The translations under genes were made by a program, and so were the position numbers. DNA of 32,000 bases. Origin: Candidatus Brocadia sp. GTDB lineage: Bacteria > Planctomycetota > Brocadiia > Brocadiales > Brocadiaceae. Location of the stretch: the NCBI GenBank assembly GCA_021650915.1, contig CP091279.1:2220001-2252000 (forward strand), in the 5' to 3' direction. The notes under the pieces were generated by a model, which saw only the letters and a list, made by a program, of their open reading frames with translations, was not told the origin of the DNA and made no database searches. This document shows, piece after piece, positions 8,677 through 28,788 of this stretch; the first letter of the stretch is position 1, and each line of letters begins with the position of its first letter.

Positions 8677-10141
8677 ATGAGAAAGAGATTTGAGCAGCAA
8701 TTGAAGCTTGGCATCATACCCATTTCAGGGGTAAAACTGCCAATAAAGAGTCGAGATGAGCTACCACCGATACTGAGGGCGTTGCAACATATCTATGTTA
8801 CACCGGAGTTGAACGAGGAGGTATTCCGGATATTAGAGGCGAAGGTAACGAAGGGGAAGAAAAAGACGGGAAGATATGGGATGGATTTATGGCATATTTT
8901 GGTGTTGTCGGTGGTAAGATTAGGGTTAGATGCCGATTATGACAGGTTGGAGGATTTTGCCAACCATCACAAACTTATCAGGCAGATAATGGGGGTTGAG
9001 ACGGCATTTGGAGAGGCGAAGGTTTTTTCGATGCAGAGCATCAAGGACAATATAAGATTGTTGGATGAGGAGACCCTCAGGCAGATAAATGAAGTGGTGA
9101 TATCATCGGGGCATCAGTTGGTTAAAAAAAAGGACGAAGGACTGTGTATTAAGGTGGATACGTATGTGTTAGAGACGAATGTACACTTTCCGGCCGATAT
9201 GAATTTATTGTGGGATGCGGGACGCAAGAGTCTGGACATGATAGAGGATGCAATAGAGGAAGGCATCCTGGCGGGGAAAGGATGGCGCAAGAGCAAATAT
9301 TGGAGGAGAGAGTTAAAAAAGCTGATGAGGATAAGCGCAAAGGCGTCAAGCAGCGGGGGGGAAAAACAAGGAAGAGCATGTGAGGAGTTACTTGGAATTA
9401 TCGAGGGGTTTGAGTGAAAAGATAGGAGCGAGTCTGTTAGCCATCTACGAAAAGGTGCTAACGACGAACCAGGTAGACAAGCATGCAGGGAAAATAGGGA
9501 CACTGGAGTATTTTCACGGGATGTTGAATAAACAGATAGACCTGGTGGAGAGAAGGGTGATCCGGGATGAGGTAATACCGGCGGCAGAAAAGGTTCATTC
9601 GTTGTTTGAGCCGCATACGGAGTGGCTGTACAAAGGCAAGTCAAACAAAAGGGTAGAGTTGGGACATAATATTCTGGTAGCAAGCGATCAGTGGGGTTTC
9701 ATCGTGGACCATGTGGTAGGAGAAAAACAGGCGGATGTATCGTTGGTAATTCCATTGGCAGATAGGTTGTTGAGCCGTTACGGAGAAGGCACAATAAAGA
9801 GTATAAGTTTTGATAAAGGTTTTTACAAGAAAGAGAATAAAGAGTTGCTGAGTTTGTATATACCAGAGGTAATCCTTCCCAAGAAGGGCAAGAAGAATAA
9901 GGCGGAACAGGAAGAGGAATCGGGTAAGACATTTAAGAAGCTAAGGCACAAGCACTCGGCGGTAGAATCGGATATCAATCGTTTGGAGCATCACGGCTTG
10001 GATAGGTGTCCGGACAAAGGGCTGCATGCCTTTAAAAGATATTGTGCAATGGGCGTGTTAGCTGCGAATTTGCACAAGCTGGGAAACGTGCTGCAGGAGA
10101 AGGCACGGAAGCAGTGCGAAAAGTTGCGAAAAGCCGCCTAA
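8677..10141 (+). pseudogene. DDE transposase (about 487 aa if repaired), split into 8677-9417 and 9380-10141 by a +1 frame change in a G7 run
   Basis: The N-terminal DUF772-like segment is LWHILVLSVVRLGLDADYDRLEDF. The DDE candidates are IKVDTYVLETNVHFPAD, SFDKGFY and RHKHSAVESDINRLE. Frame 1 switches to frame 2 at GGGGGGG (9355-9361). Deleting one G fuses ...AKASSSGG to KNKEEHVRSYLELS... Confidence 0.75.
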
Positions 10142-11313: not shown

Positions 11314-11378
11314 AATCCGGAAAATACGTACTGGACAATTATCTTACTGAACATGGACTTATGGGGAGGAAGAGGCAC

Positions 11379-12872
11379 ATGAAGGTGTTTTTGTCATTTG
11401 TGGGAGTGGCAATACTCTTTGGTGTTTTTTGCGGGGGAATACCGGCTCAAAAACTCGATAAAGGGGTAGGGCCGTACGGCGAATTCTGGAAACCAATCCC
11501 TACCCAGCGATACTGGGCACCGGACTACTTTTATTCACCGCCGGAAGAACCCAAAGGGGTATATACCGCGGATGAGTGTACGCTCTGCCACAAGGCTTTA
11601 AATCCAGGACTCGTTAAGGCATGGGCAGAAAGCAGCCATGCGAATCTCGATAAGCTGCTTGACTACCAGAAAGAGAAATTAGCCGAAATAGAAAAGACCC
11701 TGGGGCGGAAACTCACCAAGGTGGGATGTATCGATTGCCACGGCAAGGTGGGAGCGGAAAAGCTGGATCATGAAAAAGAGCTCGTTATGCCAAATTCCGC
11801 ACTGTGCGGTGGATGCCATAAACAGGAATACGAAGAGTTTGAGTCAGAAAAGCAATACGGTATTCCTGACTGGAAGCCAGGCAGGGAAAGCCATGCAAAG
11901 GCCTATGATGCCAATCTGGACGTGGATGTGTGGGCTGCGGTAGATAAGAATATTGTTCAGGGCTGCGATATGTGCCACAATATTCAGCACAAGTGCGACA
12001 GCTGTCACACCCGCCACGCCTTTAAGGCCTCTGAGTCCAGGCGTCCGGAGGCTTGCCAGACCTGTCATAACGGACCCGACCATCCTGATATTGAATATTA
12101 CCGGGACTCCAAACACGGTTCGATCTATTTTACCGAGGGGAAAGACTGGGACTGGAAAAAACCGCTCAAGGACGCCAATTATATTGCGCCCACCTGTCAG
12201 TCCTGCCATATGTATTACAAAGGGCAGTATTCTCACAATATGGTCAGAAAGGCCATTATGGGCGAGGGCGACGTATTGTTTTATGACAATGTGTTCAAAG
12301 GGATTAAGCCCACCGACTACCTCAGGAACAGCAAAGAATTAATGGCACGGCGCGAGGCATGGATAGAAGTCTGCGTAAAGTGTCATTCTCCACGGTTTTC
12401 CCGTGATTATCTTGATTCTATGGATAATGCCTCGGATGCTGTTTTCCAATACGTGAGCGATGCCTACGCCACGATTAAATCGCTTTACGAAGAGGGCATA
12501 CTCTACCCTATGCCTGAAAACAGGCCAAAAGCCCCTGCCCCCGTTGCGGAAAAGTATCCCGATCTCCTGGGCGGTTTCTACGGTGAATTTTGGGCGAAGA
12601 GCGGAAATCCGAGCAGGATTGAAAAGGACTTTTTGTATATGTGGGAAAACGATGCCTTTCTGGTCAGAAAAGGTCTGGCGCACATGAACCCCAACGGCTT
12701 TACCTATCTCTCGTGGTCAAATTTGCTCAAGAAATACGTGGATATACAAAGTGAGGCAAATACCTTGCGGCGGTTAGCTGCGTTGGAAAAGAAAGCCAAA
12801 CTGCGCCCCCGGACAAAAACGAAAAGTAAACAGACGCCCGGCGCAGCAGGGCCACAACAAAATCCTCCGTAG
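11379..12872 (+). CDS. hao: Octaheme hydroxylamine/hydrazine-oxidoreductase (HAO) family cytochrome c, secreted
   Basis: The start is ATG 11379, with GGAGGA 8 nt upstream. There is a signal peptide and eight CxxCH motifs (CTLCH, CIDCH, CGGCH, CDMCH, CDSCH, CQTCH, CQSCH, CVKCH). Colinear similarity to N. europaea HAO, recalled from memory, includes HANLDK, GCIDCH, CHTRH, KPEAC.TCH and GLAH.NP.G.TY. Confidence 0.9.
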   Translation: MKVFLSFVGVAILFGVFCGGIPAQKLDKGVGPYGEFWKPIPTQRYWAPDYFYSPPEEPKGVYTADECTLCHKALNPGLVKAWAESSHANLDKLLDYQKEKLAEIEKTLGRKLTKVGCIDCHGKVGAEKLDHEKELVMPNSALCGGCHKQEYEEFESEKQYGIPDWKPGRESHAKAYDANLDVDVWAAVDKNIVQGCDMCHNIQHKCDSCHTRHAFKASESRRPEACQTCHNGPDHPDIEYYRDSKHGSIYFTEGKDWDWKKPLKDANYIAPTCQSCHMYYKGQYSHNMVRKAIMGEGDVLFYDNVFKGIKPTDYLRNSKELMARREAWIEVCVKCHSPRFSRDYLDSMDNASDAVFQYVSDAYATIKSLYEEGILYPMPENRPKAPAPVAEKYPDLLGGFYGEFWAKSGNPSRIEKDFLYMWENDAFLVRKGLAHMNPNGFTYLSWSNLLKKYVDIQSEANTLRRLAALEKKAKLRPRTKTKSKQTPGAAGPQQNPP

Positions 12873-20163: not shown

Positions 20164-20649
20164 TTACGACACTTCCATCATCCAGGGGATGTCTTCGCTG
20201 GCAAAACGAATCGTGGCTTCGGTGGCATAATGGTATTCTGTCCTGAAATATTCATAATGAGACTGTTCAACCCTGGCAAGCATGGCAAACATTTCCTGTT
20301 CCTTTCCGTCGGTTGCGGATGCAGCGGCCTTTTGATAAAACGCATATGCCTTGAATTCCGTATCCATAATAATCTTAATAGCGTCTGCAAAGGAAGCCGT
20401 CTTGGGTGGGGTTTCAGGCCGTACAATCTTTAATTTTCCCGTTTCCTGCACAACGGGGCGCTGGTGGTATTTTTTCTCATAATACGAGAAGAGCAATTCA
20501 TAGTGGCTCATTTCAACAGCGGCCATGTCCTCAAACTTGAGACGCACCCCCTTCTCTTCCATCTGGAGCGCCAGGCTTGAGTAAAACCGGCTTGCCTTGA
20601 TCTCCTCAGAAATGGCTGTTTCCAAAATACTTTTTGTTTCATATGGCAT
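20164..20649 (-). CDS. Ferritin-like diiron protein (rubrerythrin/erythrin family, no rubredoxin domain)
   Basis: There are two repeats of the E...ExxH diiron ligand pattern: EEIKASRFY / VEMSHYE and TEFKAYAFY / VEQSHYE. Confidence 0.75.
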   Translation of the reverse strand: MPYETKSILETAISEEIKASRFYSSLALQMEEKGVRLKFEDMAAVEMSHYELLFSYYEKKYHQRPVVQETGKLKIVRPETPPKTASFADAIKIIMDTEFKAYAFYQKAAASATDGKEQEMFAMLARVEQSHYEYFRTEYHYATEATIRFASEDIPWMMEVS

Positions 20650-20868: not shown

Positions 20869-22026
20869 TTATTTTTTTATCCCCTTTAATTTTTCATACT
20901 GGGCAAACGATTTCCTGGCCTCCTCATTCAGCCCCTTCTTCTCATAAAGCGTCCCAAGGGTATTGTAAAGATCAATGCTTTCCGGATTAAGTTCCAACAC
21001 CCTGGAATATTCATAAATAGCGTCGTCTAAGGCCTCTTTGTGCTCATACACGCGGGCAAGCACCAGATGGAGCGTCGAATATTTCGGATTAATTTCAATC
21101 GCGCGTTGCAAGATTTTGACGGCATTATCTGCCATCTTTTGTTCGGTATAGACGACACCAAGGCAAATGTATGTTTTGAAATTGTTTTTATTGAGAGAGA
21201 TGGCATTCTCCCAGAGCTCGATGGCCTCCCCCGGTTGTTTGTTGTAGTAAGAGACGATACCCATCTCAAAATAGGTGTCGGGCTTTAACGCAATATTCAT
21301 TTCTTCAATGCGCCGCAATTTATTTTTTATCGCCACCAGTTTCTTTAACGTATTGGCATCCACTATCCGGTTTTTGGTTTCAGCAATGATCAGAGAAGGA
21401 ATGAATGCCTTTTTTCTTTCCAATACGAGCGTTTCCTCCAGCATTTCTTTCTCTTCCCTGATGAAATCGGTCGCTTCCTTCAGCGTCGTTTTCAGGCCGA
21501 GATTTTTGTCTTCCAGGAGAGATGTTTTTTGTTCCAGCGTTGTGATTTTTTGTTCGTAATCGCTCTTTACCTGCTGTTCTTTGGCCAGAGATTCTTCCTT
21601 CAGGCGATTTTCCAAATCAGCAGCTTGTTTTGTGAGTTCATCTTTATGAACATAATCATTCCTGAAAGACGTTAGTTTTTGTTCATAATCGTTTATCTTG
21701 TCATCGTAAATGGATTTTGACACATATTCCGTGGCTAATTTTTTTTCATACGCATCCACGGCATTCTCGTGAATTTTCTTTTGTTTGTCGCGGGTAAATT
21801 TGAGGGAGTTTATCAATTCATCTTTCTCTGCAAGCAGGGTATCGTAGTAAGGTTTTTCCTTAAAAAACCAGTAGCAAAAAAGCGCAACCACGGAAACGCC
21901 AAAGGTCGCAATCAGAATAACAGAAAGCTGTTTGTCCGTTTTGATGAAGGTGTTTTTTGAAGAGGCGGAAACTATTTTTTTGACATCTTTAAGACGGTTC
22001 AATACGTTTTCAAAGGACAATTTCAT
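20869..22026 (-). CDS. Membrane-anchored coiled-coil / TPR repeat protein
   Basis: It has one TM helix (LSVILIATFGVSVVALFCYWFF), a long Lys/Glu-rich heptad region and C-terminal TPR-like repeats (AIELWENAISLNKNN, AVKILQRAIEINPKY, AIYEYSRVLELNPES). Confidence 0.75.
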   Translation of the reverse strand: MKLSFENVLNRLKDVKKIVSASSKNTFIKTDKQLSVILIATFGVSVVALFCYWFFKEKPYYDTLLAEKDELINSLKFTRDKQKKIHENAVDAYEKKLATEYVSKSIYDDKINDYEQKLTSFRNDYVHKDELTKQAADLENRLKEESLAKEQQVKSDYEQKITTLEQKTSLLEDKNLGLKTTLKEATDFIREEKEMLEETLVLERKKAFIPSLIIAETKNRIVDANTLKKLVAIKNKLRRIEEMNIALKPDTYFEMGIVSYYNKQPGEAIELWENAISLNKNNFKTYICLGVVYTEQKMADNAVKILQRAIEINPKYSTLHLVLARVYEHKEALDDAIYEYSRVLELNPESIDLYNTLGTLYEKKGLNEEARKSFAQYEKLKGIKK

Positions 22027-24337: not shown

Positions 24338-27034
24338 ATGGTAATGATTCCAAAAATTAAATTAACTATTGACGGCAAAACCGTAGAGGTGAATAAAGGG
24401 AAAACGGTTCTGCAGGCGGCCAACGCCGTCGGCATTCAAATTCCAACCCTGTGCCATGATCCGCGTCTTGAGCCTTTTGCGGCATGCCGTGTCTGTATGG
24501 TGGAGGTGGAGCGGGGGAAGTCGAGCGCACTCATCACTTCATGCAGCACCGAGGCTACCGATGGGATGGTAATCTGCACGAATTCCGATAAGGTGCTAAA
24601 GACACGAAAGATGGTTCTGGAGCTGATCCTTTCTGACCATCCCAAGGATTGTATGACCTGTGATAAATGCGGCGCCTGTACGCTACAGGACCTTGCATAT
24701 GAATATCAGGTGCGGGATAGCAGGTTCTTTGAAAAACCCGACGGTGGGGTTACCGAAGATGAAAACCCTGCTATTCAGCAGGATACCAGCAAGTGCATCC
24801 TCTGTGGCCGCTGTGTCCGTATCTGCGCCGAAGTGCAGCAGGATTATGCGATTGACTTTAAACATCGCGGATTTACGACGGAAACCGGTCTGCCCCTTGG
24901 AAAACCGCGGCGCGAGACGAGCTGTGTCCTCTGCGGCCAGTGTGTGTCCACCTGCCCCGTCGGTTCGTTGGTGGAAAAACAGGCCGTTGGAAAGGCGAGG
25001 GACTGGGAACTGAAACAGGTAAAAACCACCTGTGCATATTGCGGCGTAGGTTGCACGATGTATTTAAACGTAAAAGGGAACGAGGTTGTGAAGGTGACCT
25101 CAAAGACGGGTTCTATCCCGAATGACGGAAATCTCTGTGTGAAAGGGCGATTTGGCTATGACTTTGTCCATCACCCCGACCGGCTGAAGCAACCGCTCAT
25201 AAAGAAGAACGGAAGATTTGAAGAGGCAACATGGGACGAGGCGTTCGATTTTATTGCCGGTAAATTGAATGACATAAAGGCCAGATACGGACCTGATACG
25301 ATAGGGGTATTCAGTTCTTCGCGATGCACCAATGAAGAGAACTATCTGGCGATGAAATTTGCGCGGGCTGCGATTGGCACGAACAACGTAGACCAGTGTG
25401 CCCGGACTTGACACGCACCATCCGTCGCCGGTCTGGCGATGTCATTTGGCAGCGGTTCAATGACCAATTCCATCAGTGAAATCAAGGATTGCAAACTCAT
25501 CTTCCTCATCGGTGGCAATCCCACCGAGGCGCATCCGATTGTAGGACTGGAGATGAAAAAGGCGCTCAGCAAGGGGTGTGTCTTTATCGTTGCTGACCCG
25601 CGCCAGATATGGTTTTCACAGCACGCAAAGTTATATCTCCCTTTGAAACCTGGCACAGACAACTGGCTGTTAAACGCAATGGCGCACGTCATCCTTGAGG
25701 AGGGCCTCGAAAACAAGGAATTCATCAGGACGCGGACCGAAGGTTTTGAAGAACTAAAGGAATTTCTGAAGGATATTACACCTGAAAAAGCCTCGGAATT
25801 TACCGGTGTTCCTGCTGAAGACATCAGAAAGGCGGCAAGAATGTATGCCCAGTCGGAGAAGTCCGCAATATATTACACCCTGGGTATTACGGAACATACA
25901 TGCGGAACCGACAATGTACGAAGCATCGCAAATCTCGCCTTGTTAACCGGACACATTGGGAAACCGAGCACCGGGGTGAACCCCATCCGCGGGCAAAACA
26001 ACGTCCAGGGCGCCACAGACATGTGTTTGCCCGATAAATTGCCTGGATATCAGCCGTTTTCGGATCAAAAAGTTGTGGAAAAATTCGAAAAGGCCTGGGG
26101 CGTTACTTTGAACAAGACTCCGGGGAATACATCGCCAACCATGTTTGAACGTATGAATAAAGGGGAATTTAAGGCGTTGTATGTCATCGGGGAAGATCCT
26201 ATTATGAGCGAACCCAATCAGAAATATACCATCAATGGATTAAAAAACTTAGAGCTTCTGGTCATACAGGATATTTTCATGTCAGAGACAGCCAGGTATG
26301 CTGACGTAATCTTGCCGGCCACAAGTTTTGCGGAGAAGGACGGTACCTTTACCAACACCGAACGCCGTGTACAGCGGGTGCGCAGGGGGATCAATCCTGT
26401 TGGAAATGCAAAGCCTGACTGGAAGATCACCTGTGAGCTGTCCACCCGTATGGGGTATAAAATGGATTATCCTTCTCCCAAAGAGGTATGGGACGAAATA
26501 GCCAGTCTTGTGCCCATGCTTGCAGGCATTAATTACGGACGGATCGAACAGAACGGCATTCAATGGCCATGTCCCGACGTAAAACATCCCGGAACAAAAT
26601 TCCTGCACGAGGGCAAATTCCCGCGTGGTCTGGGCAAGTTTTTCGTGCTGCCCTACCGCGCCCCTGCTGAGAGCCCTGACAAGGAATATCCTTTATTACT
26701 TACTACGGGGCGAACCCTGTATCATTATGGAGCAGGAACGATGACCCGCCGGTCGGCTGGCATTATTCATAAGACAAATGACTGTTTCGTTGAAGTACAC
26801 CAGGCGGATGCCGGGGAACTGGGCATCTTTGACGGTGAAATGGTAAAGGTTGTTTCTCGCAGAGGGGAGATAACGGCCCGCGCCGAGGTCTCTGACAAGG
26901 TAAAACAGGGTGTCATCTGGATACCCATGCATTTTGCGGAGGCCGCCGTGAATAAGCTGACCATGGACGCCTACGACAACATCACCCAGACGGCCGAATA
27001 TAAGGTCTGCGGGGCAAAGATTGAAAAGCTATAA
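24338..27034 (+). CDS. fdhA: Selenocysteine-containing formate dehydrogenase alpha subunit (NuoG-like N-terminal Fe-S domains plus a molybdopterin/tungstopterin domain); one gene spanning track ORFs 24338-25411 and 25439-27034
   Basis: Both ORFs are in frame 2 and are joined through TGA 25409-25411 in the conserved context [30 protein letters not shown]. Cofactor motifs are 2Fe-2S (CHDPRLEPFAACRVC), 4Fe-4S (CILCGRCVRIC, CVLCGQCVSTCP, CAYCGVGC) and the MGD-binding C-terminus (LLLTTGRTLYHYG). Confidence 0.85.
25424..25440 (+). promoter_or_regulatory. SECIS hairpin for the FDH UGA
   Basis: GUCGCC (25424-25429), loop GGUCU, GGCGAU (25435-25440), starting 13 nt after the UGA. The loop GGUC and the flanking codons resemble the E. 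coli fdhF SECIS (GGUUGCAGGUCUGCACC), recalled from memory. Confidence 0.65.
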
Positions 27035-27063
27035 AAACTGCGTTTTGCAAAAGACCAGGATGC

Positions 27064-27092
27064 GCCTGGCGCAGCCAGCGGCAGCGCCAGGC
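27064..27092 (+). terminator. GC-rich hairpin between FDH and the carbonic anhydrase gene (no U-tract)
   Basis: GCCTGGCGC (27064-27072) and GCGCCAGGC (27084-27092) are separated by an 11-nt loop. Confidence 0.3.
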
Positions 27093-27135
27093 AATCAGTT
27101 TATGAATCAATAACCCTTAATATTCCGGAGGCAAT

Positions 27136-27924
27136 ATGAAGACTTTTAAACAGGTTCTTTTAACCTCTGCAATTGTATTTCTTTCCTTTATCGCCGCAAC
27201 GTCTTTGTTCGCCGGCGTTGGTGAGCACCTTCCTCCAGACCATTGGGATTACGAAGGTGAAAAGGGGCCCGACCATTGGGGTGAGCTAAAACGCAAATAT
27301 TGTAAGTGCAGGATCGGAAATATGCAGTCGCCAATTAATATTTCCATAACAAAAAAGGCCAAACTGAACGACATCATCTTTCATTACAACCCAACCCCCT
27401 TAAGGATCATAAATAACGGCCACACCATTCAGGTCAACTATAAAAGAGGAAGCTCAATTTCTATCGGTCACAGGACGTTTGAACTTATACAGTTTCATTT
27501 TCATACACCAAGTGAACATTTAATAAACGGAAAATCTTACGCCATGGAGGCGCATTTAGTACATAGGGGAAAGCATGGAAGATTAGCGGTTGTTGCCATA
27601 CTCATTGAGGAAGGACATGGAAATGCATTCATTGAAACACTGTGGAGTAACTTTCCGAAAGAAATGGGTGAAGAGCATATTGTCTCTGATGTAAGGATAT
27701 GCGCAAGCCAACTCCTTCCGAAGAATACCACAGCATACTATAAATATACTGGTTCTCTTACCACCCCACCGTGCAGCGAAATTGTGAGTTGGTTTATCTT
27801 GAAGTCGCCAATTGAGGTATCAAAAACGGAGTTGAGCAAGTTTACCTCACTGTTCAAACATAACGCAAGACCAATTCAGCCCGTTCATGGACGGGTCGTT
27901 AAGGAAAATTTGGTTCATTCGTAA
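27136..27924 (+). CDS. Alpha-class carbonic anhydrase with signal peptide
   Basis: GGAGG precedes the ATG. The signal is MKTFKQVLLTSAIVFLSFIAATSLFA. Supporting motifs are HWDYEG..GPDHWG, QSPINI, NNGHTIQV, zinc histidines in FHFHTPSEH and EAHLVH, and YTGSLTTPPCSE. Confidence 0.9.
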   Translation: MKTFKQVLLTSAIVFLSFIAATSLFAGVGEHLPPDHWDYEGEKGPDHWGELKRKYCKCRIGNMQSPINISITKKAKLNDIIFHYNPTPLRIINNGHTIQVNYKRGSSISIGHRTFELIQFHFHTPSEHLINGKSYAMEAHLVHRGKHGRLAVVAILIEEGHGNAFIETLWSNFPKEMGEEHIVSDVRICASQLLPKNTTAYYKYTGSLTTPPCSEIVSWFILKSPIEVSKTELSKFTSLFKHNARPIQPVHGRVVKENLVHS

Positions 27925-27977
27925 AAAAATTGAGAGATGATGCTCTCAACCATAGGAGCAGAATAATAAACGAGAGA

Positions 27978-28073
27978 GTTAATTATGCTTACCACATTGA
28001 GATTATTCCCCGTGATTTAGAGAAGACTGTGGGCTTCTACAGACTCCTTGGTTCCAGCGTTAAACAAAGATAG
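27978..28073 (+). pseudogene. Short remnant of a glyoxalase/VOC-family gene (N-terminal beta-alpha unit only)
   Basis: The frame reads VNYAYHIEIIPRDLEKTVGFYRLLGSSVKQR*, which matches the H-x-x-x-x-V-x-D-L-E-x-x-x-x-F-Y-x-x-x-L-G start of VOC proteins. There is no ATG, and a stop follows after about 31 codons. Confidence 0.3.
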
Positions 28074-28140
28074 AAAGTGGTAAGCGATAAAGAAAATCGT
28101 ATCTATCCGTGACACATTTTATAACAGAAGGAGGACGACC

Positions 28141-28788
28141 ATGTTACGGTACGCTGCAAGCTGTCTTATTCTCATAGCGGTATTCCTGCCAGTAGCCCTT
28201 GCCGCAGACACCAAGAATGTACCAAAGGCCATTGCATGGGAAAAAAGCCTTGATGATGCCGTTGCAAAGGCAAAGGCTGAGCATAAGGGTATTTTGCTGG
28301 ACTTCTTTGTTCCCACCTGAACCGGTTGCAAAACCCTGGGTGCCGTGACGTACCCTGATGCAGCAGTAAGAGAATTCATCAATAAAAATTTCATTCCTTT
28401 ACAAATCAACGTGCAAAGCGGTTCTGATCTTCCCGGCAAATACCGGGCATTCTGGACCCCAACAATTCTTGTGTTAGATTCCCTGGGCATCGAATATTAC
28501 CGGTTTAATGGTTTTTTGCCACCTGAAGAATTCCTGCCGCAATTACACTTTGGATTGGCTTTCATGGCGCTGGAAAGACAGGATTACAAGACTGCCAGTG
28601 CACAGTTGAAAGCAACGGTTGACCGGTATCCCAGGAGTGACATTGCCCCGGAGGCACAGTATTGGTATGGTGTTTCAGAATACAAGGGTTCTCACAACGT
28701 GGATGCGTTATTACAGGCATGGAGGAAAATCAGGAAAGATTATCCTCAAAGTATTTGGGCAAAGAAGGTGTCCTTTGTAAAGGATTGA
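28141..28788 (+). CDS. Exported thioredoxin-fold protein with a U-x-x-C (selenocysteine) redox motif and a TPR-like C-terminal domain
   Basis: AGGAGG (28129-28134) lies 6 nt before ATG 28141. The signal peptide is MLRYAASCLILIAVFLPVALA. The sequence KGILLDFFVPT-TGA-TGCK places TGA 28318-28320 at the first Cys of the W-C-x-x-C-K motif of DsbD-gamma/Thioredoxin_7-type proteins. It is in the same frame as track ORF 28345-28788. Confidence 0.7.
28338..28355 (+). promoter_or_regulatory. Candidate SECIS hairpin for the thioredoxin-like UGA
   Basis: GGGUGC (28338-28343), loop CGUGAC, GUACCC (28350-28355), giving 6 bp including one G-U pair. It starts 18 nt after the UGA and has GU in the loop. Confidence 0.35.

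What the first reader, a model, noticed from the sequence alone, without database searches (positions are those of the whole stretch)
28141..28788. Hidden exported selenoprotein: thioredoxin-fold protein with a U-T-G-C active site
The track shows only a 147-aa ORF from 28345 and an antisense ORF at 28119-28490. Reading frame 1 from ATG 28141, with AGGAGG 6 nt upstream, gives a clean signal peptide (MLRYAASCLILIAVFLPVALA/AD). It continues AIAWEKSLDDAVAKAKAEHKGILLDFFVPT, then TGA (28318-28320), then TGCKTLGAVTYPDAAVREFINKNFIPLQINV... This is the layout of DsbD-gamma/Thioredoxin_7-type proteins, in which this position reads D-F-x-A-x-W-C-x-x-C-K. The TGA therefore sits exactly at the nucleophilic Cys of the CxxC motif and stays in frame with the downstream ORF. 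A hairpin with GU in its loop lies 18 nt downstream (28338-28355). A second Sec gene (FDH) lies only about 1.1 kb away (about 2.9 kb between the two UGA codons). A Sec-dependent, signal-peptide-bearing thiol/selenol oxidoreductase fused to a TPR-like domain would be an unusual extracytoplasmic redox catalyst.
Basis: partly seen in the sequence, partly recalled or inferred. Interest (0 to 1): 0.75.

Follow-up and report, generated by a model that had tools for sequence, protein, structure and literature searches.

The report
Unannotated selenoprotein of a known family
This anammox bacterium (Candidatus Brocadia) has a real but mis-annotated gene for a selenocysteine-containing thioredoxin-like protein; its family was predicted to be a selenoprotein family about twenty years ago, so this is a correct annotation fix, not a new kind of enzyme.

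Summary
ATG 28141 opens a 215-codon frame with one in-frame TGA (28318-28320), which sits where homologs have the first Cys of CxxC.

In 86 gene copies from Brocadiales, Acidobacteriota, Gemmatimonadota, Myxococcota and others, this codon is TGA 85 times, TGC once, and never TAA or TAG. Protein conservation runs across it.

The hairpin at 28338-28355 is conserved, has a compensatory G-C to A-U pair, and coincides with the gene's minimum of synonymous variation. A Sec-type formate dehydrogenase (TGA 25409) lies in the same window.

The family is not new. The protein is 39-40% identical over its whole mature length, U aligned to U, to the "Thiol:disulfide interchange protein" selenoproteins of Geobacter metallireducens and G. 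uraniireducens (Zhang et al. 2006, supplement; listed in the 2022 and 2026 reviews).

Three things are added here:
- Membership of anammox bacteria, where public records show only a truncated 147-aa "thioredoxin family protein".
- An N-terminal signal peptide found only in Brocadiales copies; the other copies look cytoplasmic.
- A much wider distribution than the three species reported in 2006.

The function (a selenol/thiol-disulfide oxidoreductase with a YbgF-like helical tail) is inferred, not shown.

The parts
28129..28134 (+). Shine-Dalgarno AGGAGG, 6 nt before the start codon
   Evidence: Read directly from the sequence.
28141..28788 (+). Full coding sequence of the selenoprotein: 215 codons, Sec at codon 60, stop TGA at 28786-28788
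   Evidence: Translation. tblastn matches to residues 1-215 in other Brocadiales. Full-length calls P0001-P0003 have W at the TGA because genetic code 4 was used.
28141..28203 (+). Predicted Sec-type signal peptide MLRYAASCLILIAVFLPVALA, with cleavage after A-L-A
   Evidence: A hydrophobic N-terminus is conserved in character but not in sequence in all Brocadiales type-1 copies, and is absent in the non-anammox copies. Residues 1-25 of the model have pLDDT below 50. No signal-peptide predictor was available, so this is an inference.
28228..28545 (+). Thioredoxin-like domain (residues about 30-135), DsbD-gamma / Thioredoxin_7 type
   Evidence: Pfam PF13899 2.8e-11 and PF13098 5.1e-11, both above their cut-offs. 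PDB profile hits 2kuc and DsbD-gamma. Foldseek matches DsbD-gamma with TM 0.73-0.76 and rmsd 2.1-2.8.
28318..28320 (+). UGA decoded as selenocysteine (U60), the attacking residue of the U-T-G-C motif
   Evidence: TGA in 85 of 86 homologous copies and TGC in 1. U aligns with the U of the published Geobacter selenoproteins. It sits at the N-cap of helix 61-70 in the model.
28327..28329 (+). TGC, the resolving Cys63 of U-x-x-C
   Evidence: This Cys is in the search pattern that defined the 86 gene copies, so its presence in them is by construction. It is invariant in the six full-length proteins aligned.
28338..28355 (+). SECIS-like hairpin GGGUGC-CGUGAC-GUACCC: 6-bp stem and a 6-nt loop containing GU, 17 nt after the UGA
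   Evidence: 98.5% of cells are paired in 33 Brocadiales sequences, and one pair is compensatory (G-C 24, A-U 7). The same 18-mer occurs in the distant members L088 and L089. Normalised synonymous-codon entropy is 0.21 here against 0.43-0.89 in the other six-codon bins. It gives no Rfam SECIS match.
28453..28464 (+). W-T-P-T, the cis-proline loop of the thioredoxin fold
   Evidence: W105 and P107 are invariant and T108 nearly so. The loop precedes strand 108-112 in the model.
28555..28767 (+). C-terminal helical, TPR-like domain (residues about 139-209), YbgF/CpoB type
   Evidence: Pfam YfiO 25.1 bits (cut-off 25), TPR_6 24 bits (below its cut-off of 26.3). NCBIfam TIGR02795 YbgF 43.8 bits (below its cut-off of 90.1). 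PDB profile hits YbgF 2xev 6e-12 and CpoB 6g5s 5.8e-10. Helices 128-209 have pLDDT above 95.
24338..27034 (+). Formate dehydrogenase alpha subunit, the second selenoprotein gene of the window (Sec TGA 25409-25411). It is evidence that this organism decodes UGA as Sec.
   Evidence: The translation reads ...QCARTU HAPSVAG.... Pfam finds Fer2_4, NADH-G_4Fe-4S_3, Molybdop_Fe4S4, Molybdopterin and Molydop_binding. Rfam SECIS_3 matches 25406-25464 at 35.3 bits, E 1.6e-5, below its gathering score of 63.

Best explanation
Window 28141-28788 is one gene for a 215-residue selenoprotein of the already described 'Thiol:disulfide interchange protein' selenoprotein family (Thioredoxin_2/Thioredoxin_7 domain, UxxC motif).

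Proposed decoding and processing:
- SelB with Sec-tRNA(Sec) binds the hairpin at 28338-28355 and inserts selenocysteine at UGA 28318.
- The second TGA, at 28786, terminates translation.
- The N-terminal 21 residues act as a Sec-pathway signal peptide. The mature protein of about 194 residues therefore works outside the cytoplasm, in the periplasm or the anammoxosome.

Proposed catalysis:
- U60, at the N-cap of helix alpha-1, attacks a disulfide or another oxidised sulfur centre of a client protein.
- C63 resolves the mixed selenenylsulfide.
- The cis-Pro loop W105-T-P-T completes the active site.
- The YbgF-like helical tail, predicted to pack against the thioredoxin domain, supplies client recognition.

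Shown here: the single reading frame, the conserved UGA at the CxxC position, the conserved hairpin, the fold, and family membership.

Inferred: Sec insertion itself, cleavage and export, the redox chemistry, the client and the electron donor.
For: - One frame, with a ribosome-binding site and an in-frame TGA.
- TGA in 85 of 86 copies across phyla and TGC in one.
- Protein conservation on both sides of the TGA.
- Orthologs in Geobacteraceae with shared flanking genes (RsmB upstream, a phospholipase-D-family gene downstream) alternate between TGA (L087) and TGC (L002).
- Among full-length relatives, 36 CxxC and 8 SxxC representatives put their first Cys/Ser at the U position.
- Hairpin: 98.5% of cells paired, with a compensatory pair, in Brocadiales. 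In the other clade a 14-bp hairpin has 7 doubly changed pairs and 0 of 500 shuffles reach the observed value. The synonymous-entropy minimum lies exactly on the hairpin.
- TGA is also an ordinary stop in the window: 5 of 24 long ORFs, including this gene's own stop.
- An FDH gene with CARTUH and an Rfam SECIS_3 match lies 2.9 kb away.
- The window protein is 40% identical to the published G. uraniireducens selenoprotein (E 3e-51) and 39% to the G. metallireducens one (E 6e-47), over residues 31-209 with U aligned to U.
- Fold: pLDDT 89.9, pTM 0.83, U at the N-cap of the helix, DsbD-gamma as closest domain.
- The signal peptide is present only in Brocadiales copies.
Against: - There is no experimental evidence of Sec insertion for any member. 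The 2026 review lists the family as 'predicted with high confidence', not verified.
- The hairpin matches no Rfam SECIS model.
- Its GU lies 6 nt further from the UGA than in the FDH SECIS of the same window.
- selA, selB, selC and selD are not in the window. The machinery is inferred from the FDH gene.
- The signal peptide was judged by eye, and an uncleaved membrane anchor is not excluded.
- No conserved neighbour gene points to a client or a reductant.
- The structure was predicted for P0001 (72% identical, with W at the Sec position), not for the window protein itself.
Confidence: 0.88

Rival explanations
1. The TGA is a real stop. The locus holds a 59-residue leader ORF and a separate 147-residue protein started at GTG 28345, as public annotation has it, or else a decaying pseudogene.
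For: Gene callers and NCBI records give the 147-150 aa form, named 'thioredoxin family protein'. The hairpin has no Rfam SECIS match.
Against: A 147-residue product would lack strand beta-1, the active site and part of helix alpha-1 of the thioredoxin fold. The region upstream of the TGA is conserved as protein in more than 80 genomes. The stop is always TGA and always at the CxxC position. Cys-form orthologs are continuous. The published family members are read as Sec.
Confidence: 0.03
2. UGA is read through as Trp, Gly or Cys, by an alternative genetic code or near-cognate suppression, and not as Sec.
For: Several metagenome gene calls translate the codon as W.
Against: Those W residues come from genetic code 4 being applied to short contigs. 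TGA terminates 5 of 24 long ORFs in the window, including this gene. The position is the redox-active Cys, the typical site of Sec. Sec/Cys alternation is seen, not Trp. A Sec-type FDH in the same window shows the Sec trait.
Confidence: 0.03
3. The gene is a selenoprotein, but the N-terminal hydrophobic segment is an uncleaved membrane anchor, or is not used at all. The protein would then be membrane-tethered or cytoplasmic, like its non-anammox relatives.
For: Most family members have no signal peptide: they start M-x-I-x-W, 32 residues before the U. No predictor was run. The second copy in L020 and L021 has no room for one.
Against: ATG 28141 with AGGAGG is the only start in the open frame upstream of the domain. 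The segment has a basic n-region, a hydrophobic core of about 15 residues and an A-x-A site. That pattern is kept across Brocadiales although the sequence drifts. The upstream neighbour gene, a carbonic anhydrase, carries a similar N-terminus.
Confidence: 0.15

Closest known systems
'Thiol:disulfide interchange protein' selenoprotein family (reference 12 of the 2022 and 2026 reviews, which from my own knowledge is Kryukov & Gladyshev 2004; Zhang et al. 2006, PMC1794560 additional file 4; listed as PF13098, UxxC, WP_011366075.1 in PMC9312934 and PMC13188914)
   Same: The length of the mature part, the domain order and the motifs are the same: LLDFF-x-P-x-U-x-G-C-K, V-T-Y-P, W-T-P-T, G-F-L-P-P, A-P-E-A-x-Y. 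The window protein is 39-40% identical over residues 31-209, with U aligned to U. The Geobacteraceae MAG ortholog L087, 'FFNPGUIGCKQMDAVTYP', has a hairpin in the same register.
   Different: The Brocadia protein carries a 21-residue signal peptide that the Geobacter proteins lack, and reads U-T-G-C instead of U-I-G-C. In 2006 the family was reported in three deltaproteobacteria only. Here it is found in Brocadiales, Acidobacteriota, Gemmatimonadota, Eisenbacteria, Myxococcota and others.
DsbD C-terminal (gamma) domain, e.g. PDB 2fwg, 1vrs, 1uc7
   Same: It is the closest solved fold for the thioredoxin half: TM 0.73-0.76 normalised to the target, rmsd 2.1-2.8, 20-25% identity. The redox motif occupies the same place.
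   Different: The window protein has no membrane domain and no alpha domain. It has Sec instead of Cys and an added helical tail. The NCBIfam DsbD model scores 40.8 bits against a cut-off of 330.
CnoX / YbbN chaperedoxin (PDB 3qou, 3qdn)
   Same: A thioredoxin domain followed by a TPR-type helical domain. It is the top Foldseek hit by E-value, 2.5e-6.
   Different: The domains are arranged differently (TM 0.38, rmsd 11.9). CnoX is longer at 282 aa. There is no sequence-family relationship. The chaperone hand-over function is not implied.
YbgF / CpoB C-terminal TPR domain (PDB 2xev, 6g5s; TIGR02795)
   Same: The C-terminal 70 residues match at E 6e-12 and 5.8e-10. TIGR02795 scores 43.8 bits.
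   Different: The score is below the family cut-off of 90.1. There is no coiled-coil N-domain and no Tol-Pal context.
VPGUxxT thioredoxin-like selenoproteins (NF041382, NF041383) and Trx7/PDZ selenoprotein (NF041199)
   Same: These are Thioredoxin_7-like selenoproteins. The local motif V-P-T-U resembles V-P-G-U.
   Different: The scores are 34.4, 21.1 and 16.3 bits against cut-offs of 275, 350 and 300. The resolving residue here is Cys, not Thr. The domain architecture also differs.

Membership tests
Bacterial selenoprotein gene (SelB/SECIS-dependent UGA recoding) | An in-frame UGA conserved among orthologs, with coding conservation on both sides | tested here: met
   TGA in 85 of 86 copies and never TAA or TAG. 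tblastn and motif conservation run across it.
Bacterial selenoprotein gene (SelB/SECIS-dependent UGA recoding) | Cys-containing homologs with Cys aligned to the UGA | tested here: met
   L002 has TGC against L087 TGA with shared flanking genes. There are 36 CxxC representatives and Cys forms in cultured Geomonas.
Bacterial selenoprotein gene (SelB/SECIS-dependent UGA recoding) | A stem-loop shortly downstream of the UGA with G/U in the apical loop, conserved as structure | tested here: met
   The hairpin at 28338-28355 has 98.5% of cells paired and a compensatory G-C to A-U pair. The second clade has 7 doubly changed pairs and 0 of 500 shuffles reach the observed value. Synonymous entropy is at its minimum on the hairpin. 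Caveat: no Rfam SECIS match.
Bacterial selenoprotein gene (SelB/SECIS-dependent UGA recoding) | selA, selB, selC and selD present in the genome | not testable with these tools
   They are not in the 32-kb window. The machinery is inferred from the Sec-type FDH with an Rfam SECIS_3 match in the window.
Bacterial selenoprotein gene (SelB/SECIS-dependent UGA recoding) | Selenium physically present in the protein | not testable with these tools
   This needs 75Se labelling or mass spectrometry. The family is listed as predicted, not verified.
'Thiol:disulfide interchange protein' selenoprotein family (PF13098, UxxC) | Full-length homology to the published Sec-containing members, with U aligned to U | tested here: met
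   BLASTP gives 40% identity (E 3e-51) to the G. uraniireducens protein and 39% (E 6e-47) to the G. metallireducens protein, over residues 31-209.
'Thiol:disulfide interchange protein' selenoprotein family (PF13098, UxxC) | PF13098 domain and UxxC motif | tested here: met
   PF13098 scores 43.3 bits against a cut-off of 27. The motif U-T-G-C is read directly.
Thioredoxin-fold thiol-disulfide oxidoreductase | A thioredoxin fold with the redox motif at the N-terminus of helix alpha-1 and a cis-Pro loop | tested here: met
   In the model, strand 51-56 is followed by U60 and then helix 61-70, and P107 precedes strand 108-112. W105 and P107 are invariant. Foldseek matches DsbD-gamma and thioredoxins.
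Thioredoxin-fold thiol-disulfide oxidoreductase | Measured redox activity | not testable with these tools
   This needs a biochemical assay.
DsbD (NF001419) | The whole-protein model score, with membrane and alpha domains | tested here: not met
   40.8 bits against a cut-off of 330. Only the gamma-like domain is present.
VPGUxxT thioredoxin-like selenoprotein (NF041383 / NF041382) | Model score above the cut-off, and a VPGUxxT motif | tested here: not met
   34.4 and 21.1 bits against cut-offs of 275 and 350. The motif here is VPTUTGC.
CnoX/YbbN chaperedoxin | The same two-domain structure | tested here: not met
   Foldseek E 2.5e-6, but TM 0.38 and rmsd 11.9. There is no sequence-family hit.
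Exported (Sec-pathway) protein | A cleavable N-terminal signal peptide | tested here: inconclusive
   The n-region, h-region and A-x-A pattern is conserved in Brocadiales and absent elsewhere, and the segment is disordered in the model. No dedicated predictor or experiment was available.

The most novel reading that the evidence does not exclude
Brocadiales took a normally cytoplasmic Sec-dependent thioredoxin-like protein and added a signal peptide. They would thus have a selenol-based disulfide reductase or isomerase in the anammoxosome or periplasm, for instance to keep the CxxCH motifs of their very abundant multihaem cytochromes reduced, or to repair proteins damaged by reactive nitrogen intermediates. 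It would be fed by a CcdA/DsbD-type membrane electron shuttle. That would be a lineage-specific relocation of a selenoenzyme tied to anammox cell biology.
Probability: 0.15. Interest if true: 0.55.

Novelty: new member of a known kind. Interest (0 to 1): 0.3.

Why it matters
The practical value is annotation. Every public record seen for this gene in anammox bacteria, and in the Geobacteraceae, Planctomycetota and unassigned-metagenome records whose names were returned, gives a truncated protein of about 150 residues. These are named 'thioredoxin family protein', 'TolA-binding protein', 'tetratricopeptide repeat protein' or even 'BamD', or carry a spurious Trp at the active site. Reading the gene correctly adds a second selenoprotein to the Brocadia selenoproteome.

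It also shows that this 20-year-old predicted family is far more widespread than first reported: 245 hits among GTDB species representatives.

The family is strongly Sec-biased in the clades sampled here, and Sec and Cys forms are interspersed across the family tree. That makes it a good case for studying Sec/Cys exchange.

The signal peptide specific to anammox bacteria gives a concrete, testable lead on extracytoplasmic redox maintenance in these organisms. It does not reveal a new kind of system.

Tried and rejected
- Rfam at gathering threshold over the whole window found nothing. At E up to 10 over 25300-28500 it found SECIS_3 only at the FDH UGA, not at the thioredoxin hairpin.
- The lower helix predicted by RNAfold (alignment columns 11-16 with 45-50) is weak, with 68.7% of cells paired. 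I do not claim it.
- Neighbour clustering over 80 loci found synteny only within Brocadiales (carbonic anhydrase, LOG, SdhB-like, FtsY) and within Thermoanaerobaculia (LolD-like, ClpC-like). No partner is conserved across phyla. Two large 'clusters' were antisense shadow ORFs of the gene itself.
- I suspected Sec/Cys alternation inside one 90% cluster (P0122, 188 aa, against P0284, 150 aa). P0284 is simply cut by a contig end and is a Cys form.
P0001 was modelled instead.
- Two extra homology searches, seeded with Geomonas and Geobacteraceae sequences, did not return the G. metallireducens record or any protein named as a selenoprotein. The link to the known family came only from the supplement of PMC1794560.
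- The EMBO Reports 2004 paper is not held. No supplementary files are held for the BSepDB paper, so I could not check whether the Brocadia entries are already in that database.
- No sel genes or tRNA-Sec lie in the window.

Full report
**1. Observation**

- AGGAGG lies at 28129-28134 and ATG at 28141.
- The N-terminus is hydrophobic: MLRYAASCLILIAVFLPVALA/AD.
- The frame continues ...GILLDFFVPT, then TGA at 28318-28320, then TGCKTLGAVTYPD..., and stays open to TGA at 28786-28788. That makes 215 codons.
- The mechanical ORF list shows only the two halves (59 aa, and 147 aa from GTG 28345) and an antisense ORF at 28119-28490.
- The window comes from a Candidatus Brocadia genome. The 147-aa fragment is 99% identical to records named 'MAG: thioredoxin family protein [Candidatus Brocadia sp.]'.

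**2. Is the TGA a coding codon?**

With U replaced by C, the protein reaches Pfam Thioredoxin_7 (43.8 bits) and Thioredoxin_2 (43.3 bits), both above their cut-offs. Its tail reaches YfiO/TPR_6-type models.

Of about 120 homologs, nearly all are 147-150 aa calls that begin just after the TGA. The few 'full-length' calls have W at that position. Their DNA shows TGA, so those callers used genetic code 4.

A scan of one genome per GTDB species found 245 relatives. The best 80 loci come from Brocadiales, Acidobacteriota/Thermoanaerobaculia, Gemmatimonadota, Eisenbacteria, Myxococcota and others.

In 86 gene copies the codon at this position is TGA 85 times, TGC once, and never TAA or TAG. The local motifs are:
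- FF-x-PT-U-TGCKTLG in Brocadiales type 1.
- F-[LM]-I-[GA]-U-[AT]-SCES in a second Brocadiales paralog.
- DF-[ST]-AAPM-U-[GSA]-GCARL-[ED]-AEVYPD in the other phyla.

TGA is also a normal stop in this window, ending 5 of 24 long ORFs including this gene itself. An alternative genetic code is therefore excluded.

**3. Cys homologs**

An exhaustive profile search gave 203 cluster representatives at E of 1e-30 or better.
- Of 60 representatives of 170-260 aa (mostly about 190 aa), 36 carry CxxC and 8 SxxC at the aligned position. They include proteins of cultured Geomonas species annotated 'DUF255/thioredoxin fold domain-containing protein'.
- About 50 further representatives are truncated forms of about 150 aa. 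Two were spot-checked and both have TGA.
- In Geobacteraceae, two loci that share flanking genes (RsmB upstream, a phospholipase-D-family gene downstream) carry TGC (L002, FFSPECIGCQQ) and TGA (L087, FFNPGUIGCKQ).
- On a rough neighbour-joining tree, Sec or truncated forms and Cys forms are interspersed, with at least 27 state changes. This is a crude estimate.

**4. SECIS**

In 33 Brocadiales sequences the stem at 28338-28343 / 28350-28355 has 98.5% of cells paired. One pair is compensatory (G-C in 24 sequences, A-U in 7). This couples a Gly-to-Asp replacement to a synonymous TAC-to-TAT change.

Two distant members that were spot-checked (L088, L089) carry the 18-mer GGGTACCGTGACGTACCC, one base different from the window's, in the same register.

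Normalised synonymous-codon entropy along the gene is lowest on the hairpin: 0.21 for codons +6 to +11, against 0.43-0.89 in the other six-codon bins.

The non-anammox clade uses a different hairpin. It is longer, starting 5 nt after the UGA, and its upper stem CUCGGC-UGGAN-GCCGAG starts 12 nt after the UGA. In 49 sequences 87.6% of cells are paired, 7 pairs have changes on both sides, and 0 of 500 shuffles reach the observed value.

Caveats:
- No Rfam SECIS model matches the thioredoxin hairpin.
- The FDH UGA in the same window gets SECIS_3 at 35.3 bits, E 1.6e-5.
- The loop GU lies 6 nt further from the UGA than in the FDH element.

**5. Sec trait of the organism**

ORFs 24338-25411 and 25439-27034 are one FDH alpha gene. 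It reads ...QCARTU-HAPSVAG..., with TGA at 25409-25411. No sel genes or tRNA-Sec lie in the window, so the machinery is inferred from this FDH gene.

**6. Structure and anatomy**

An AlphaFold2 model of P0001 (72% identical to the window protein) has pLDDT 89.9 and pTM 0.83.
- Residues 1-25 are disordered.
- Strand 51-56 is followed by the Sec position at the N-cap of helix 61-70.
- The invariant W-T-P-T loop precedes strand 108-112.
- Helices 128-209 form a compact tail.

The nearest solved folds are DsbD-gamma for the thioredoxin half (TM 0.73-0.76, rmsd 2.1-2.8) and, by domain order only, CnoX/YbbN (TM 0.38). The tail matches YbgF and CpoB TPR domains by sequence profile.

U60 and C63 are the only conserved redox residues.

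**7. Signal peptide**

All Brocadiales type-1 copies have a hydrophobic N-terminus of 20-25 residues with a basic start and a small-x-small site. The pattern is conserved but the sequence is not.

The non-anammox copies whose start can be assigned start M-x-I-x-W, 32-33 residues before the U, and in many there is no room for a leader. One tandem Brocadiales paralog (L020, L021) also lacks a leader.

Export is therefore a lineage-specific addition. It is inferred, not demonstrated.

**8. Comparison with what is known**

No NCBIfam selenoprotein model reaches its cut-off: TsoB 42 against 805, VPGUxxT 34 against 275, Trx7/PDZ 16 against 300. No public record seen names the protein a selenoprotein.

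The family is nevertheless published. Additional file 4 of Zhang et al. 2006 (PMC1794560) lists, under 'Thiol:disulfide interchange protein', the Sec-containing proteins of G. metallireducens (...LLDFFNPGUIGCKQMDAVAYPD...) and G. uraniireducens.

The window protein is 39% and 40% identical to them over residues 31-209, with U aligned to U (E 6e-47 and 3e-51).

The family appears in the 2022 and 2026 reviews as PF13098, UxxC, WP_011366075.1, 'predicted with high confidence'. In 2006 it was known from three deltaproteobacteria.

**9. Verdict**

It is a genuine selenoprotein gene that annotation pipelines split or truncate.

It is not a new kind of protein. It is a new, signal-peptide-bearing member of a known predicted selenoprotein family.

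The function is inferred from fold and motif: a selenol/thiol-disulfide oxidoreductase whose YbgF-like tail probably selects clients. The client, the reductant and the compartment remain unknown, and no conserved neighbour helps.

Noticed in passing
window 24338-27034 (+): The formate dehydrogenase alpha subunit is split by the ORF finder at its Sec codon (TGA 25409-25411, motif CARTUHAPS). Rfam SECIS_3 matches 25406-25464 below the gathering score (35.3 against 63 bits).
   Followed up: partly
window 27136-27924 (+): An alpha-type ('eukaryotic-type') carbonic anhydrase lies between the FDH and the selenoprotein gene. Its N-terminus (MKTFKQVLLTSAIVFLSFIAATSLFA/GV) also looks like a signal peptide. 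The carbonic anhydrase lies upstream of the gene in 10 Brocadiales loci.
   Followed up: partly
L020 5181 and 5801; L021 5115 and 5735: Two groundwater Planctomycetota MAGs carry two tandem copies of the gene about 620 nt apart, both with TGA. The first copy has a signal peptide. The second (FYLIA-U-TSCES) has no room for one. Jettenia ecosi J2 and Brocadiaceae Bin_5 carry the two paralog types on separate contigs (L025 and L031; L024 and L030).
   Followed up: partly
P0001-P0003, P0044, P0076 (loci L001, L003, L004): Public metagenome gene calls (Logan, ENA, JGI) give these selenoproteins as full-length with Trp at the Sec position, evidently because genetic code 4 was applied to short contigs. 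Other records name the truncated forms 'TolA-binding protein' or 'outer membrane protein assembly factor BamD'.
   Followed up: yes
L036-L085 (non-anammox clade), about 5-42 nt after the UGA: This clade uses a second, longer SECIS-like hairpin, with the upper stem CUCGGC-UGGAN-GCCGAG starting 12 nt after the UGA. The Brocadiales and Geobacteraceae type starts 17 nt after the UGA. One protein family thus has two SECIS solutions, and each constrains a different stretch of peptide (ARLEAE against GTVTYP).
   Followed up: partly
window 11361-12872 (+): A multihaem cytochrome with the Pfam Multi-haem_cyto domain (E 9.6e-85), of hydroxylamine/hydrazine-oxidoreductase type. This is consistent with an anammox genome.
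   Followed up: no
window 9380-10141 (+) and 8677-9417 (+): There is a weak DDE transposase hit (PF01609). It is preceded by an overlapping ORF with no family match. This may be an insertion sequence.
   Followed up: no
window 28119-28490 (-): The 123-aa antisense ORF across the start of the gene is a shadow of the coding frame. Comparable antisense ORFs recur opposite the gene in high-GC relatives and clustered as spurious 'conserved neighbours'.
   Followed up: partly
window 20164-20649 (-) and 20869-22026 (-): A rubrerythrin gene and a TPR-repeat protein gene lie upstream on the minus strand. No link to the selenoprotein was seen.
   Followed up: no
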